Positions 57,901 to 60,767 of a DNA stretch of 64,000 bases are shown here, piece after piece. Numbering within the stretch: position 1 is the first letter of the stretch; every line of letters starts with the position of its first letter. A model generated the notes under the pieces. It did not search any database and was not told where the DNA came from. It was given only the letters and a program-made list of their open reading frames with translations. The stretch covers positions 1,600,001-1,664,000 of the forward strand of contig OZ253462.1 in NCBI GenBank assembly GCA_965261395.1. Direction: 5' to 3'. This DNA comes from Candidatus Latescibacterota bacterium (GTDB lineage Bacteria > Latescibacterota > UBA2968 > UBA8231). The position numbers and the translations under genes were made by a program.

Positions 57901-58263
57901 GATCGGGCCGTGGCCTACGCCGCAGCCTGCGTGCGCGCGGCCCGGGACATTCCGGCGATGGTCACCTATGCCGGCATGACCTCCACGGACGGGGTCATGC
58001 TCTACGTCAACGGGCAGCGAATCGGCACGCGCTGGCGCTTCAACCAGTGGGGCCCGACGCTGCTGCGACAGGGAGACAACATCGTCTTCGCCGTGCTCTC
58101 CAACCTCGACCGCGACTGGCGGGCAGGCATGCAGGTGGAACCGATGGCTCCCCTCGCCCCTGGCGAGCTCATCGCCGTCCCTGCCGACAAGCTCTCCGAC
58201 GTGGCGGCCCTGAAGAGTGCAGTCGAAGCGGTACCGGAAGGCCGGGCCCGTGGACTCGACTGA
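54973..58263 (+). CDS. Secreted right-handed beta-helix (pectate lyase 3/GH28-related) carbohydrate-active protein
   Basis: GGAGGG RBS, signal peptide, VVDFGAVPND...DTQAL...GGGIVHLPRGRY, Asn-ladder repeats, C-terminal WLVVGPF beta-sandwich. Confidence 0.8.
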   Translation: MYREPCRRSGRAVAIMALALGMAMCSLSHADLPPPAVVWWSAPVLPGEIVVLHGGDWGDDPKVEIASIRNSEPGEAATGRTPVMGDVRVLAPIHRTETGLSFVLPETPEGLHMCRVVLGGGGASAPFVLNEPTSWWVQGDRGRAASPGGWLRVFGRCLSFDAKARMALKRGNDHIELPLQQQDSWSVTASLPTKLASGAYEVFVHNGHGGPAGWRRVGTMAIAVHEEVWENRVFDVVDFGAVPNDRAADTQALRAALAAAGQNGGGIVHLPRGRYQIHGTLEIPPFTLLRGESLELSQLYWPDTQKPPAALIKGSHDFGVEDLFITSGNYLNGIVSGRLADPASGRVIIRRVRMRLLRDQYVSAEERLRRHSLPGHALDLEGEFVRVTDCDIATSGRGGSFALRVRYGQVAGNRFINGGNSISGSENLIFEDNTVTGGGVSVAPLPLYQRNIYFAGNRLERNFAHDREAMTLDGRTHTYQGAVTNVAGNRLVLADEGMAWRNGADHWINGGIMVFAGRGAGQLRRIRRIDGRTVEVDRPWTIEPDDSSLIAISYFRERHLFVGNRIEDATIALQLHGSLIEGIVAGNTSTRAGGFHSFGMWKGGGPEPSWYVQYFDDEILEGNAYRGPMNEIPSLDSHLAIQDRGNSQTDYSFTRTCLARRCILRNNARIEVLGNGIADNVLIENCLVENADIGLYVDPRAQGVILRGNRFDNVLQPMTGTIERAVTHPADLVLAALSGAQAQLGAGAPAAWARIQSELETLAVEGDLASKATAAKARAFLAEAVAALASSGSEEYTADLMRTLLGIDVAVDTDALAAAATTGKATSVPVQVSVPSWSLPVSVALHVDPFPGWTVASSPTQAIEPGGTAHFALQTAGPKRPASPFDLPFTCDVHGDGWRLSFTDHAGPARLTVTDWLVVGPFENESGEVIDTTVHPPELKLDVTARYETRDGVKGWKPIRSTADGRLDLTAHFTDADRAVAYAAACVRAARDIPAMVTYAGMTSTDGVMLYVNGQRIGTRWRFNQWGPTLLRQGDNIVFAVLSNLDRDWRAGMQVEPMAPLAPGELIAVPADKLSDVAALKSAVEAVPEGRARGLD

Positions 58264-58362
58264 CAGCGCGACGGCACCAAGTTCGGGTCGTTGCACAGGT
58301 TTGTGGTGATGGGTCGGAAGACGTTTTTTGTTTGCATGAATAGACTCTTCTATTAACGAAGC

Positions 58363-59031
58363 ATGATGATGAAATTCACTCTTTTACTTTTGACCTTATA
58401 CCTGGGCACATCACCTGTTTTTGCACAGGAAACGCAAGTGGATTCTACGCGGAGCGACCGACCGACATTTTCGCTGACGCCTACCTGAGTGGGCTGACCT
58501 GGCGAAGGCGCACCACTTCGGGGAAGTGGCATTCATACGAAATTTGCACTTTCGGGGCGGTATGTACATACGTCGATGGACCGTCCGCAGTGGCGGTTTA
58601 CCGCCAATTACAGACTGCATCAACGCCTGCAAGTTGGGATCGAGCTGAATCCAAAAGCAGAAGAGGTAGGACCTCTTGCGACCCTGTTTTTGCTAACCGA
58701 GACAGAGACGCGTCCGGCACTCTTTTTGGGCACGAGTTCAGATCGAATTGGATCGCCGGCGGGCGAGCAGTCTTACTTCGCGACTGTAAGTAAATATATA
58801 CCTCGGTTGCGCACTTCTTTTTACGGCAGTTTGAATTATTCGGAATGGGATGGGAAGTTCAATATTCCCTTTGGCGTGGGGGTTGAATTGGGCAAAGGCT
58901 TTTCATTGCGACCGATGTATGATGGCGACCGGAGGCATGTGATGCTGAATTATTTCGCCACGCAATACGGTGTCAGTTTGATGTATGTGTGGCTCGAAAC
59001 CATGGGTATTTCGTTTTCTCTTGGATTTTAG
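58363..59031 (+). CDS. Predicted double-selenocysteine (UxxU) exported protein, probable outer-membrane beta-barrel, 222 aa
   Basis: One frame: MMMKFTLLLLTLYLGTSPVFA-QETQ...SLTPT-TGA-VG-TGA-PGEGAPLRG...SMDRPQW...ISFSLGF. TGAs at 58486 and 58495; joins ORF 58576-59031. Confidence 0.8.
58486..58530 (+). promoter_or_regulatory. Candidate bacterial SECIS element(s)
   Basis: ccacttc-ggg-gaagtgg hairpin (58513-58529); alternative stem agtgg..cct-ggcga-agg..ccact directly after the first TGA. Confidence 0.6.
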
Positions 59032-59043
59032 TGTGGAGGATCA

Positions 59044-59733
59044 ATGCGTTGTTGCAATTTTTTATTTTTAATTGTTTTGGCAAGTTCGGTTACGCTTATA
59101 GCTGAAACTCAGATTCCCGATAAGGCACTTTGTAGTGTCTGTGCATTAAAGGGCGGCGAGACAGAGTTGGAAAAGGTCAAGGCCCATTCGGAACACGATG
59201 GCAAAGCGTACTATTTTTGTTCTGAAAACTGCAAAATAGAATTTGACTCAGATCCCTTGGCTTATTTACCACCGGTATTTCCACGACCTGCACCAGCCTT
59301 TGTCGTTGAAATGCTGGAGGGCGGGGACCAGGCGTTGGGGGATTTGCAGGGCAAAGTTGTGCTCGTAGATTTTTGGGCAACATGGTGCAAACCTTGTCTT
59401 GAGACAATGCCCCGGTTGCAAAAACTCTACAGCGCTTATTCCGATAAGAGTTTTGACGTTTTGGGTGTGTCTATAGATGAAGACGAAGACGAAGACCGGG
59501 TTAAGAAGATCAAAGAGATGGTGGACAAAATGGATATTTCTTATCCCATCTTTATAGACGCTAAACAGACGCCCGCTTGGTATCAGTTTAAGGTGAAAGC
59601 GATTCCTGCGATGTATCTTCTCGATGGAGAAAGTCAGATCGTCGCGCAGTGGACGGGAAAGATAGATTACGAGGAAGTGGAGCAGGAAGTCTTGCGACGG
59701 TTAAAAAAAAGGCTCCACGTTGAAGAGCCATGA
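59044..59733 (+). CDS. Exported YHS/TRASH domain + TlpA-family thioredoxin fusion
   Basis: GGAGGA RBS, signal peptide, CSVC...GKAYYFCSENC...FDSDP, then DFWATWCKPC and AIP cis-Pro loop. Confidence 0.9.
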   Translation: MRCCNFLFLIVLASSVTLIAETQIPDKALCSVCALKGGETELEKVKAHSEHDGKAYYFCSENCKIEFDSDPLAYLPPVFPRPAPAFVVEMLEGGDQALGDLQGKVVLVDFWATWCKPCLETMPRLQKLYSAYSDKSFDVLGVSIDEDEDEDRVKKIKEMVDKMDISYPIFIDAKQTPAWYQFKVKAIPAMYLLDGESQIVAQWTGKIDYEEVEQEVLRRLKKRLHVEEP

Positions 59734-59768
59734 GCGAGCTTTATCTTTCTGGAAACCCAATAAATCCC

Positions 59769-60767
59769 ATGACACAAATAGTCTCCACTGTCGACTTTGA
59801 CCGCGATGGCAAGCAAATCGGCTGGTTGCATGTGCCGCATTCGGTCACTCGCAGCGCCTACGGGGTACTGCCCATCCCCGTCGCCGTCATTCGCAATGGC
59901 CCCGGGCCGCAGGTCCTGCTGACAGCCGGCAACCACGGCGACGAGTACGAGGGCCAGGTGGTCCTGACGCGCTTGATCCAAGAGGTGCAGCCCGAGCAAA
60001 TCCGCGGCGGGCTTATCATCATACCGGCGCTGAATCAGCCAGCCGTGCTAGCGGCAGCGCGGGTCAGCCCGCTGGACGCAGGGAATCTGAACAGGGTCTT
60101 CCCGGGCGATCCCGGGGGCGGACCGACGTGGAAAATTGCGGACTATGTCGAACAGCATCTGCTGCCGCGGGTTGAAGTGGTGGCCGACTTCCACGGCGGC
60201 GGGGCCTCCCTGGACTACCGACCGCACGCCAGCACCCACTTCGGCCCCAACACGTCCTCTGAGCACAAGCGCCTAAGCCTGGATTTGGTTTCCAAGCTAG
60301 GTGTGCCGCACGTAATGGTTTTCGAGAACCGCACTGATAAGGGAGGGCTACCCGATGCCGCCATCCGGCAGGGCGTGATCTCTCTGGGCGGGGAATACGG
60401 TGGTACGGGGAGCGTATCGCGGTCCGGGGTAAAGCTGGTGCAACAGGCGGTTGACCGATTGCTGGCAGCCCTGGGGGTTAAGGGTACGCTGCCGGACGAC
60501 CTCGAGACGCCTCAGGTCCTCCACATCTTCGGCCCCGACGCGTACTCTTATGCACCGGAACCAGGCCTGTTCGATCCGGCCACCGATCTGGGTGACGAGG
60601 TGAGTGCCGGCGATCTGTGCGGTCAGGTCCTGTTTCCGGAGAATCCTTCGCGGCCCCCCGTGCCCGTCACTTTTCGAGGCGAGGGTACGGTGGTCTGCAA
60701 ACGGCACCTGGGCAGGGTGGAAGCCGGAGACTGCGTCGCCCACCTAGCAGCCCCTGTAAGCGACTGA
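59769..60767 (+). CDS. Succinylglutamate desuccinylase/aspartoacylase family deacylase (DoeB-like); alternative start 59730
   Basis: GNHGDEYEG, NLNRVFPG, DFHGGG, GEYGG. Confidence 0.88.
   Translation: MTQIVSTVDFDRDGKQIGWLHVPHSVTRSAYGVLPIPVAVIRNGPGPQVLLTAGNHGDEYEGQVVLTRLIQEVQPEQIRGGLIIIPALNQPAVLAAARVSPLDAGNLNRVFPGDPGGGPTWKIADYVEQHLLPRVEVVADFHGGGASLDYRPHASTHFGPNTSSEHKRLSLDLVSKLGVPHVMVFENRTDKGGLPDAAIRQGVISLGGEYGGTGSVSRSGVKLVQQAVDRLLAALGVKGTLPDDLETPQVLHIFGPDAYSYAPEPGLFDPATDLGDEVSAGDLCGQVLFPENPSRPPVPVTFRGEGTVVCKRHLGRVEAGDCVAHLAAPVSD

What the first reader, a model, noticed from the sequence alone, without database searches (positions are those of the whole stretch)
58363..59031. Hidden double-selenocysteine (UxxU) exported beta-barrel-like protein
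Seen in sequence: ORF 58576-59031 has no signal peptide, but its frame extends upstream through exactly two TGA codons (58486 and 58495) to a clean signal peptide (MKFTLLLLTLYLGTSPVFA/QE). The TGAs sit in T-*-V-G-*-P, the spacing of a CxxC-P redox or metal motif. The C-terminal part alternates hydrophobic and polar residues and ends in Phe (ISFSLGF). Established knowledge: bacterial Sec is encoded by UGA plus an adjacent SECIS, Sec usually replaces redox Cys, and a terminal Phe is typical of BAM substrates. Inference: a 222-aa outer-membrane protein with Sec42 and Sec45, able to form a diselenide. UxxU proteins are rare and I do not recognise this family. Two independent nonsense mutations landing in CxxC spacing is an unlikely alternative.
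Basis: partly seen in the sequence, partly recalled or inferred. Interest (0 to 1): 0.93.

Follow-up and report, generated by a model that had tools for sequence, protein, structure and literature searches.

The report
Double-selenocysteine outer-membrane barrel protein
The gene is a real, previously unannotated selenoprotein: an exported outer-membrane barrel whose tail carries two selenocysteines three residues apart, always paired with a metal-binding thioredoxin gene, which points to a selenium-based way of handling metals or electrons at the cell surface.

Summary
Frame 58363-59031 is open except for TGA at 58486 and 58495.

Evidence that it is a real UxxU selenoprotein:
- Both TGAs are kept in 26 of 26 related loci that cover the site, from several phyla, within the motif PTUxGUPGEGAPLRGSG.
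- Distant homologues have true Cys codons there (PTCAGCAGEAR). One locus is the mixed form U-x-x-C.
- A 7-bp hairpin lies 22 and 31 nt after the two UGAs. It is conserved, with compensatory changes at synonymous sites.
- The genome has tRNA-Sec, selA, selB and selD.

AlphaFold gives a 12-stranded barrel (pLDDT 84). Foldseek finds only outer-membrane barrels.

A YHS + TlpA-like thioredoxin gene follows in 26 of 27 loci. In the Cys forms the same three parts recur in other fusion orders.

Pfam, NCBIfam and a 2026 catalogue of 119 selenoprotein families lack this family. Public records call only a 151-aa fragment.

Most likely function, by inference: periplasmic handling of a soft metal, probably copper, at an outer-membrane channel. 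The thioredoxin would keep the selenols reduced.

The parts
58363..59031 (+). Complete coding sequence of the UxxU selenoprotein (222 codons + TAG), read with TGA = Sec at codons 42 and 45
   Evidence: Public gene calls hold only the 151-aa piece 58576-59031.
58363..58425 (+). Signal peptide MMMKFTLLLLTLYLGTSPVFA, with the putative cut before Q22
   Evidence: Read from the sequence and conserved in the related loci. No signal-peptide predictor was run.
58486..58488 (+). First UGA, read as Sec42
   Evidence: TGA in 26 of 26 loci. TGC/TGT in 6 of 7 distant loci and TGA in the seventh, L064.
58495..58497 (+). Second UGA, read as Sec45
   Evidence: TGA in 26 of 26 loci. TGC/TGT in 7 of 7 distant loci.
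58513..58529 (+). SECIS-type hairpin CCACUUC-GGG-GAAGUGG. The apical loop starts 31 nt after UGA1 and 22 nt after UGA2.
   Evidence: Energy -8.7 kcal/mol, z -3.2. 98.2 % of cells are paired over 24 distinct sequences, and 2 of 7 pairs show compensatory changes at synonymous third positions. It meets the four bSECIS criteria quoted in PMC13188914 section 5.
58543..59025 (+). 12-stranded beta-barrel domain (residues 61-221), ending in Phe222
   Evidence: AlphaFold2 pLDDT is above 90 over this part, with 12 strands by DSSP. The Foldseek PDB hits are all outer-membrane or designed transmembrane barrels.
59044..59733 (+). Partner gene: an exported YHS-domain + TlpA/ResA-like thioredoxin (229 aa, active site WCKPC). 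It lies 12 nt downstream and has a GGAGG ribosome-binding site.
   Evidence: Pfam and NCBIfam. A homologue follows the barrel gene in 26 of 27 loci. Alignment A4.
59179..59271 (+). YHS (TRASH-type) putative metal-binding domain of the partner, residues 46-76
   Evidence: Pfam PF04945, E 3.9e-9, 36.8 bits against a cut-off of 30.3.
59287..59685 (+). Thioredoxin fold of the partner, residues 82-214, with C115 and C118
   Evidence: Pfam AhpC-TSA, Redoxin and Thioredoxin_8. NCBIfam ResA subfamily 97 bits, below its cut-off of 170. FWATWC and C118 are invariant in A4.

Best explanation
Window 58363-59031 encodes one exported protein of 222 residues. Both in-frame UGA codons are decoded as selenocysteine (U42-V-G-U45) with the help of one SECIS hairpin at 58513-58529. 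After its signal peptide is removed, the protein is a 12-stranded outer-membrane beta-barrel with an N-terminal tail of about 40 residues that carries the motif PTUxGUPGEGAPLRGSG. By the usual barrel topology the tail starts in the periplasm. The barrel works as a unit with the next gene, an exported protein made of a YHS (TRASH-type) metal-binding domain and a TlpA/ResA-like thioredoxin. My preferred mechanism is inferred, not shown. The diselenol on the tail captures a soft metal ion, copper being the leading candidate, at the periplasmic mouth or inside the small barrel. It exchanges the ion with the YHS domain, and the thioredoxin domain keeps or returns the U-x-x-U pair to the reduced, metal-binding state. 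Shown here: the reading frame, conservation of both UGAs, Sec/Cys exchange in homologues, the covarying hairpin, the Sec machinery, the barrel fold prediction, and the three-part gene association. Inferred: selenium insertion, the diselenide/diselenol cycle, the metal and its direction of travel. My confidence that this is a genuine double-Sec outer-membrane protein tied to the YHS/thioredoxin partner is about 0.9. My confidence in the metal-handling mechanism is about 0.45. The figure given is for the whole statement.
For: (1) Both TGAs are kept in 26 of 26 loci covering the site. The loci are labelled Latescibacterota, Gemmatimonadota, Planctomycetota, Calditrichia, Deferribacteres and Acidobacteriota/Thermoanaerobaculia. 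The same holds for all 30 site-covering matches among 168 genomes of the phylum.
(2) Sec/Cys exchange: 11 of 31 fetched distant homologues read PTCAGCA at the aligned place. Their DNA has TGC/TGT in 6 of 7 metagenome loci. The seventh, L064, is TGA-x-x-TGT with its own 8-bp hairpin at the same distance.
(3) The hairpin has 98.2 % of cells paired. Pair 42-54 reads AU 10, GC 10, GU 4. Pair 45-51 reads CG 21, UA 2. These changes sit at third positions of Pro/Ser and Leu/Gly codons. 0 of 500 shuffles reach the covariation score, and slid controls fall to 29-69 % paired. Energy is -8.7 kcal/mol. It meets the loop, stem, G-in-loop and 16-37 nt criteria.
(4) tRNA-Sec scores 70 bits with anticodon TCA. 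selA scores 563 bits, selB 346 bits and selD 375 bits, the last with its own in-frame TGA. selA is over its cut-off in 5 of 5 carrier genomes of other phyla.
(5) TGA is an ordinary stop in this genome; the gene just upstream ends in TGA at 58261-58263.
(6) Fold: pLDDT 84.2, pTM 0.77, 12 strands. Foldseek finds FapF (E 3.8e-5), KdgM, NanC and designed 10- and 12-stranded transmembrane barrels.
(7) Partner: the YHS + thioredoxin gene is downstream in 26 of 27 loci, while other neighbours vary. In the Cys forms, YHS domains are fused in front of the CxxC-barrel: 4 of 10 long homologues score over the Pfam cut-off and 1 just under it. A homologous 160-aa thioredoxin follows in L063, L068 and L069. 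In L066 a separate YHS protein follows.
(8) Contigs from 4 of 4 RNA-library runs (2 studies) bridge both TGAs and the upstream part. This is weak support, because they are contigs and DNA carry-over is not excluded.
Against: No direct evidence of selenium insertion exists. No metal, redox or binding experiment was done.
The metal is guessed from the YHS domain and from the chemistry of Sec. Nothing in the conserved neighbourhood names copper or any other metal: no oxidase, ATPase, Sco or mer genes were seen.
Foldseek TM-scores are modest (0.35-0.50 by query length). The fold class is supported, but no specific barrel family.
The position of the N-terminal tail relative to the barrel is uncertain: pLDDT is 61-72 for residues 31-60, and the model's coordinates could not be inspected.
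One hairpin serving two UGAs 9 nt apart is inferred from spacing only.
Rfam has no match to the hairpin.
The partner thioredoxin does not reach the NCBIfam cut-offs for ResA or TlpA.
Confidence: 0.5

Rival explanations
1. It is a genuine UxxU outer-membrane selenoprotein, but the pair is a pure redox centre and not a metal site. A diselenide/diselenol on the tail would be recycled by the thioredoxin partner. It would pass reducing equivalents to substrates in or beyond the barrel, for example reduction of external disulfides, peroxides or oxidised chalcogen compounds. The YHS domain would serve only as a docking or sensing module.
For: The C-x-x-C/U-x-x-U spacing is the classic redox motif. 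According to the review table read, most prokaryotic selenoproteins are redox proteins. A dedicated thioredoxin is always present. In the C. jejuni Fet cluster, CxxC motifs next to a YHS domain plus two thioredoxins are discussed as redox elements (PMC10783030, passages read).
Against: The YHS domain follows the system through three different fusion arrangements and is duplicated in the Cys forms. That is more than a bystander would explain. No peroxidase-like or oxidoreductase fold is attached to the motif, which sits in a tail without predicted fold. No electron donor gene of the DsbD/CcdA type was seen in the conserved neighbourhood.
Confidence: 0.3
2. There are two separate products. One is a short secreted 41-residue peptide that ends at the first TGA. 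The other is a 151-aa protein started at Met72 (58576), as public annotation has it. No selenocysteine is involved.
For: Gene callers produce exactly this. 118 of the 120 best listed homologues are called from starts downstream of the TGA pair. The window's own record has the 151-aa call.
Against: The stretch between the second TGA and Met72 is the most conserved part of the protein (PGEGAPLRGSG...SGRYVDT). It is in frame and contains barrel strand 1, residues 61-68. Met72 is not conserved: Leu, Lys or Glu stand there in the loci, so the callers pick starts giving 130-167 aa. A barrel protein without a signal peptide could not reach the outer membrane. Cys-form homologues are continuous through the site.
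Confidence: 0.02
3. It is a pseudogene with two nonsense mutations, or an organism or site where UGA is read as Trp or another standard residue.
For: Three database proteins (P0024, P0061, P0211) show W at both sites, and P0134 shows C-x-x-W. A few copies do look decayed: L032 has an extra stop and a weakened hairpin, and G148, G141 and G139 hold fragments.
Against: Identical 'mutations' in 26 of 26 loci across phyla are not decay. The W forms occur only on contigs of 833-1653 nt. Members of the same 90 % clusters on long contigs are called truncated at 135-161 aa. This fits a code-4 gene call of TGA on short contigs; that explanation rests on my recall of how metagenomic gene callers work. 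TGA ends normal genes here. Homologues have Cys, not Trp, encoded by TGC/TGT.
Confidence: 0.02

Closest known systems
[quoted passage not shown]
   Same: It has two Sec in U-x-x-U spacing replacing a metal-binding C-x-x-C. By my recall of the GMTCxxC motif, a Thr stands directly before the first Sec/Cys, as it does here (P-T-U / P-T-C).
   Different: No sequence relation: NCBIfam gives no hit at E <= 0.1. Here the motif sits on an unstructured tail of an outer-membrane barrel, not in a ferredoxin-like HMA fold.
Other outer-membrane barrel selenoproteins: GSU2204/MtrB-PioB family (NF041027) and TonB-dependent receptor of FCYXU type (NF049945), listed in PMC13188914 Table 1
   Same: They are selenoproteins located in the outer membrane as beta-barrels.
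   Different: Each has a single Sec, the barrels are much larger, and the families are different. Neither model hits this protein.
TlpA/ResA-type periplasmic thioredoxins that reduce Cys pairs of copper-site proteins (TlpA with ScoI and CoxB; role recalled, not from a call)
   Same: The partner gene has the same fold and a WCxxC site, it is exported, and its presumed client is a C-x-x-C/U-x-x-U pair that must be reduced to bind metal.
   Different: Its scores are below the NCBIfam cut-offs (ResA 97 against 170, TlpA 69 against 230). It is fused to a YHS domain, and its client is an outer-membrane barrel.
Campylobacter jejuni FetA (DUF2318 with two CxxC motifs + YHS) together with the thioredoxins FetE/FetF in the fetMP-fetABCDEF iron-uptake cluster (PMC10783030, passages read)
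   Same: It shows the same triad of CxxC motif, YHS domain and dedicated periplasmic thioredoxins in a metal-acquisition setting.
   Different: FetA is an inner-membrane protein with eight helices, contains no Sec and has no barrel. Relatedness was not tested here.
Small 12-stranded outer-membrane barrels FapF, KdgM and NanC (PDB 5o68, 4fqe, 2wjr)
   Same: They are the best structural matches (E 3.8e-5 to 9e-3, TM 0.46-0.62). By recall, FapF also has an N-terminal extension that plugs the pore.
   Different: Sequence identity is 9-14 %. There is no Pfam hit and no PDB sequence hit. None of them has a Cys/Sec pair or a thioredoxin partner.

Membership tests
Bacterial selenoprotein gene (SelB/SECIS-dependent UGA decoding) | In-frame TGA conserved among orthologues, with conserved coding sequence on both sides | tested here: met
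   26 of 26 loci have both TGAs. All 30 site-covering matches in the phylum have at least 2 TGA. Substitutions upstream are biased to the third codon position.
Bacterial selenoprotein gene (SelB/SECIS-dependent UGA decoding) | Cys at the aligned position in homologues | tested here: met
   PTCAGCA in 11 of 31 fetched homologues. TGC/TGT codons in 6 of 7 loci and the mixed U-x-x-C form in L064.
Bacterial selenoprotein gene (SelB/SECIS-dependent UGA decoding) | bSECIS: stem of 4-16 bp, loop of 3-9 nt with G in its first two places, 16-37 nt after the UGA, energy <= -7.5 kcal/mol (criteria from PMC13188914) | tested here: met
   7-bp stem, loop GGG, 31 and 22 nt after the two UGAs, -8.7 kcal/mol. 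Conserved with 2 compensatory pairs.
Bacterial selenoprotein gene (SelB/SECIS-dependent UGA decoding) | tRNA-Sec, SelA, SelB and SelD in the genome | tested here: met
   selA is also present in 5 of 5 carrier genomes of other phyla.
Bacterial selenoprotein gene (SelB/SECIS-dependent UGA decoding) | Selenium actually present in the protein | not testable with these tools
   This needs 75Se labelling or mass spectrometry.
Outer-membrane beta-barrel protein (BAM substrate) | N-terminal Sec-type signal peptide | tested here: inconclusive
   The sequence has the typical n, h and c regions and these are conserved. No predictor was available.
Outer-membrane beta-barrel protein (BAM substrate) | Closed antiparallel barrel with an even number of strands | tested here: met
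   12 strands with pLDDT above 90. Foldseek hits are only transmembrane barrels. This is a prediction, not a solved structure.
Outer-membrane beta-barrel protein (BAM substrate) | C-terminal beta-signal ending in an aromatic residue | tested here: met
   The protein ends ...ISFSLGF. A terminal F is kept in nearly all aligned members (or L/W in a few).
Known UxxU selenoprotein families (Prx-like PF00578, HMA NF041115, FmdB TIGR02605) | Match to the family model | tested here: not met
   Pfam and NCBIfam give 0 families at E <= 0.1.
KdgM/NanC porins and FapF | Sequence match to the family or to a solved member | tested here: not met
   No Pfam hit. No PDB sequence hit at E <= 1 with the profile. 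Only fold-level likeness.
TlpA / ResA thiol-disulfide oxidoreductases (partner gene) | Thioredoxin fold with a CxxC site, exported | tested here: met
   Pfam AhpC-TSA 5.5e-20 and Thioredoxin_8. WCKPC is invariant in A4.
TlpA / ResA thiol-disulfide oxidoreductases (partner gene) | Score over the NCBIfam curated cut-off | tested here: not met
   ResA 97.4 against 170; TlpA 69.1 against 230.
Hypothetical protein GOS_A (Zhang and Gladyshev 2008, PMC2398784) | Sequence identity with the GOS_A reads | not testable with these tools
   GOS_A is named in the text with 2 Sec sequences and 155 Cys homologues. Its sequences are in figures and supplements that I could not see. It is absent from the 2026 table.

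The most novel reading that the evidence does not exclude
This would be a new class of outer-membrane device. A small 12-stranded barrel has an N-terminal tail that carries a diselenol/diselenide (U-x-x-U) and threads or caps the pore. With a YHS metal domain and a dedicated thioredoxin, it would move a soft metal, or reducing power, across the outer membrane. The whole unit would spread as a two-gene cassette between unrelated phyla that share marine host-associated communities. Its two UGA codons, 9 nt apart, would be decoded through a single SECIS hairpin.
Probability: 0.25. Interest if true: 0.85.

Novelty: new variant of a known kind. Interest (0 to 1): 0.72.

Why it matters
Selenoproteins with two adjacent Sec are rare. 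The 2026 catalogue I read lists 119 prokaryotic families, only three of them with a UxxU motif and none like this one.

This family is widespread: one search found 675 database relatives, from at least seven phylum labels. Yet it is annotated everywhere as a truncated 130-167-aa hypothetical protein without a signal peptide. Its true form and location have therefore been invisible.

It adds an outer-membrane barrel with a selenium active site. It offers a natural case for asking how one SECIS serves two closely spaced UGAs. It also defines a three-part system (C/UxxC/U barrel, YHS domain, thioredoxin) whose function can now be tested.

The Sec, mixed and Cys versions give ready-made comparisons for asking what selenium buys over sulfur in a periplasmic metal or redox site.

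Tried and rejected
- Rfam scan of 58300-59100 at E <= 10 found no family. This says nothing against a bacterial SECIS, since such hairpins are not well covered by curated families.
- Whole-segment folds (58480-58560 and 58486-58535) are not more stable than shuffles, with z -0.9 and -0.8. Only the 17-nt hairpin stands out.
- The promoter and terminator scan of 58100-60000 gave nothing above the shuffle expectation on the + strand.
- The PDB sequence search with the family profile found 0 hits.
- Neighbours beyond the two-gene pair are not conserved across loci and were dropped as functional clues. These include hydantoinase B, ankyrin-repeat proteins, amidohydrolase, AstE/AspA-like, alkaline phosphatase, a GGDEF regulator, a tricorn-like protease and Dus.
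I used an alignment of the Cys forms instead.
There is therefore no test of contact between barrel and partner. Whether they bind stably stays open.
- Earlier findings of this scan returned nothing by place, sequence or words.
- Literature searches for this family found no description of it. The term sets were: UxxU + selenoprotein + bacteria; YHS domain + thioredoxin + outer membrane; selenoprotein + beta-barrel + outer membrane + selenocysteine + metagenom; selenocysteine + sponge + symbiont + Latescibacter; diselenide + selenoprotein + two selenocysteine + SECIS + bacterial.
- RNA-library contigs are presence data only, and parts without cover are not interpreted.
Full report
**1. The observation.**
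On the + strand the frame that starts at ATG 58363 runs to TAG 59029-59031. It has exactly two internal stops, both TGA, at 58486-58488 and 58495-58497. Read as Sec they give ...FSLTPT-U-VG-U-PGEGAPLRGSG.... Under table 11 the region splits into a 41-aa ORF with a typical signal peptide and a 151-aa ORF, 58576-59031.

**2. The frame is conserved across the two TGA codons.**
- A protein search with the read-through product found 675 relatives. Of the best 120 listed, 118 are gene calls that start downstream of the TGA pair (130-167 aa). Two run through it and show W at both sites.
- DNA of 27 related loci from GTDB species genomes was fetched. One locus, L046, is cut by its contig end. In the other 26 both codons are TGA, inside the nearly invariant PTUxGUPGEGAPLRGSG, with a signal peptide upstream.
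- The record titles name Latescibacterota, Gemmatimonadota, Planctomycetota, Calditrichia, Deferribacteres, 'Multivoradales' and Acidobacteriota/Thermoanaerobaculia.
- In 168 genomes of the window's phylum, 35 have a match (9 of 30 in the same genus, without the window's genome). All 30 matches that cover the site have at least two internal TGA.
- Among 19 close sequences, differences in the 24 codons before the first TGA fall 25/21/54 % on codon positions 1/2/3. In the 57 nt from the first TGA onward they fall 8/13/79 %. The upstream part is therefore translated in this frame.
- The W forms are best explained as code-4 gene calls. They occur only on contigs of 833-1653 nt, while members of the same 90 % clusters on long contigs are called at 135-161 aa. 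That metagenomic gene callers can switch to code 4 is my recall, and the DNA behind these proteins was not seen.

**3. Sec/Cys exchange.**
- An exhaustive profile-free search of 1.84 billion representatives gave 181 relatives. Of 31 sequences fetched, 11 read PTCAGCA(G)EAR at the aligned place. One reads SCALC, and P0134 reads C-V-G-W.
- Seven metagenome loci of this Cys branch were fetched. Six have TGC/TGT at both sites. L064 has TGA at the first site and TGT at the second, giving U-A-G-C.
- The family thus shows UxxU, UxxC and CxxC. CxxU is probable if the W of P0134 is a TGA. This is the standard signature of selenocysteine.

**4. The SECIS element.**
- A 7-bp hairpin, CCACUUC-GGG-GAAGUGG, lies at 58513-58529. 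Alone it folds at -8.7 kcal/mol, z -3.2, and 2 of 200 shuffles fold as well.
- In an ungapped alignment of 27 sequences (24 distinct) 98.2 % of cells pair. Pair 42-54 reads A-U in 10, G-C in 10 and G-U in 4. Pair 45-51 reads C-G in 21 and U-A in 2. The varying bases are the third positions of the Pro/Ser and Leu/Gly codons, so the protein does not change while the helix is kept.
- 0 of 500 shuffles reach the covariation score. Sliding the partner by 1-3 columns drops pairing to 29-69 %. The tool's caveat about related sequences applies.
- The apical loop begins 31 nt after the first UGA and 22 nt after the second. Both lie inside the 16-37 nt range of the bacterial SECIS model. The loop starts with G, and the stem, loop and energy criteria are met (criteria read in PMC13188914 section 5).
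- L064 has its own 8-bp hairpin, GGCGCUCC-GUG-GGGGCGCC, at the same distance from its single UGA. The six Cys-only loci do not carry this hairpin sequence, although L063 has a different hairpin in about the same place.
- No second conserved hairpin was found, so I infer that one element serves both UGAs. This is not shown.
- Rfam has no match.

**5. Sec machinery and genetic code.**
- The genome (6.55 Mb, one contig) has a tRNA-Sec (70 bits; ARAGORN tRNA-SeC, anticodon TCA), selA (563 bits), selB (346 bits) and selD (375 bits, itself with one in-frame TGA).
- selA is over its cut-off in 5 of 5 carrier genomes chosen from other phylum labels.
- TGA is a normal stop here; the gene upstream ends in TGA at 58261-58263.

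**6. The protein.**
- Pfam, NCBIfam and the PDB sequence library give no hit.
- AlphaFold2 with a 59-row alignment gives mean pLDDT 84.2 and pTM 0.77. Residues 61-221 score above 90 and form 12 strands. The tail, residues 31-60, scores 61-72.
- Foldseek against the PDB returns only transmembrane barrels: FapF (E 3.8e-5), designed 10- and 12-stranded barrels, KdgM, NanC, OEP21, Omp33 and general porins. TM-scores are 0.35-0.62 and identity 8-15 %.
- With the signal peptide and the conserved C-terminal aromatic residue, this is an outer-membrane barrel of about 12 strands. By the usual topology its N-terminal tail, and so the U-x-x-U pair, starts in the periplasm. Whether the tail enters the pore could not be examined.
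- The best conserved barrel motifs are GTSSDRIGSP, NYSEWD and MYDGxxxH. They lie at strand ends and loops of the model. Their role is unknown.

**7. The partner and the system.**
- Twelve bases downstream, behind a GGAGG, starts a 229-aa exported protein. It has a YHS domain (36.8 bits, cut-off 30.3) and a TlpA/ResA-like thioredoxin fold with WCKPC.
- A homologue follows the barrel gene in 26 of 27 loci. In L024 it lies 1.8 kb away. L026 ends before it could appear. Everything else around the pair varies.
- In the Cys branch the same three parts are arranged differently. One or two YHS domains are fused in front of the CxxC-barrel: 4 of 10 long homologues score over the Pfam cut-off and one just under it (also loci L063, L065, L068 and L069). 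A homologous 160-aa thioredoxin follows directly in L063, L068 and L069. In L066 a plain CxxC-barrel is followed by a separate YHS protein.
- Three domains that stay together through fusion and fission form a functional unit.

**8. How it most likely works (inference).**
YHS/TRASH domains are regarded as metal-binding, possibly for copper (recalled from the Pfam description). Sec binds soft metals strongly. TlpA-type thioredoxins reduce Cys pairs of copper-site proteins (recalled).

The C. jejuni Fet cluster offers a parallel. It combines CxxC motifs, a YHS domain and two thioredoxins in metal uptake (PMC10783030, passages read).

I therefore favour a metal hand-over at the periplasmic face of, or inside, a small outer-membrane channel. 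The tail diselenol would be the first ligand, the YHS domain the next station, and the thioredoxin the keeper of the reduced state. I put this at about 0.45.

A pure redox relay is the main rival, at about 0.3. Separate products, pseudogene decay and Trp decoding are each at about 0.02 or less, for the reasons given under the rivals.

**9. Expression.**
Contigs assembled from four metatranscriptome-labelled runs of two studies cover the gene and bridge both TGAs. Examples are 58300-58751 in X15 and 58475-58668 in X18, the latter with no differing letter. These are contigs and DNA carry-over is not excluded, so this is weak support. The same runs hold deeper contigs of other organisms that match only 58494-58535 (second UGA plus hairpin). 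Their flanking letters read ...ACC TGA AGC GC-, another T-U-S-A-U form.

**10. What is known.**
I read the whole of Table 1 of the 2026 review (119 families). UxxU is listed only for a Prx-like family, an HMA-type metal-binding protein and FmdB. Outer-membrane selenoproteins are listed only as the GSU2204/MtrB-PioB family and a TonB-dependent receptor type. None matches this protein.

The 2008 GOS paper names an uncharacterised 'GOS_A' whose sequences are in figures and supplements I could not see. Identity with it cannot be excluded.

Five literature searches found no description of the family. Public records name its members 'hypothetical protein' in truncated form.

**11. Verdict.**
This is a genuine and, as far as I could check, undescribed double-selenocysteine protein family. 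It has an unusual location and a defined two-gene system. Its decoding follows the known bacterial mechanism. Its function is open but testable.

Noticed in passing
window 58363-59733 against its flanks, and 1-kb bins of the whole window: The two-gene pair has 47.6 % G+C between flanks of 66.7 % and 62.6 %. In most Latescibacterota-labelled loci the pair is 5-18 points below its flanks. In the Calditrichia- and Thermoanaerobaculia-labelled loci it matches them. Protein identity is 77-81 % to Gemmatimonadota-labelled copies, and presence is patchy (9 of 30 in the genus). This looks like a transferred cassette. The window has further low-GC islands near 1-3 kb, 11-14 kb, 52-54 kb, 61-62 kb and 63-64 kb.
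   Followed up: partly
G000:C1:167936-168859 (locus L021): The genome's selD match has one in-frame TGA, so SelD is itself probably a selenoprotein here.
   Followed up: no
L032:3001-3663 (= G150): This copy has an extra in-frame stop in the signal peptide, several odd substitutions and two broken pairs in the hairpin. It is a decaying copy or carries sequencing errors. G148, G141 and G139 hold only fragments of the gene.
   Followed up: partly
L064, about 900 nt upstream of the U-x-x-C gene: The same frame upstream reads a secreted-looking, very Cys-rich stretch with repeated CC pairs. It might be another metal-binding protein next to the mixed Sec/Cys form.
   Followed up: no
L029, L030, L035, L037-L040 flanks: Ankyrin-repeat protein genes, in one to three copies, flank the pair in seven loci, together with hydantoinase B and an amidohydrolase.
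   Followed up: no
window 59730-59733: The AstE/AspA-like gene (59730-60767, 65 % G+C) starts with ATGA overlapping the stop of the low-GC thioredoxin gene. In L025 and L032 the same gene lies about 1.3 kb further away, with another ORF in between.
   Followed up: no
G000:C1:66535-66620 (locus L002): A second match to the tRNA-Sec model sits just at the gathering score (47.2 bits) beside another tRNA-like hit. It is probably a long-arm tRNA such as Ser or Leu and not a second tRNA-Sec.
   Followed up: no
window 58494-58535 and 59347-59387 in runs X15-X18: Much deeper contigs of other organisms match only these two 41-42-nt stretches, which are the second UGA plus hairpin and the FWATWC active-site region. 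Homologous pairs from other community members are therefore present in the same RNA libraries.
   Followed up: no
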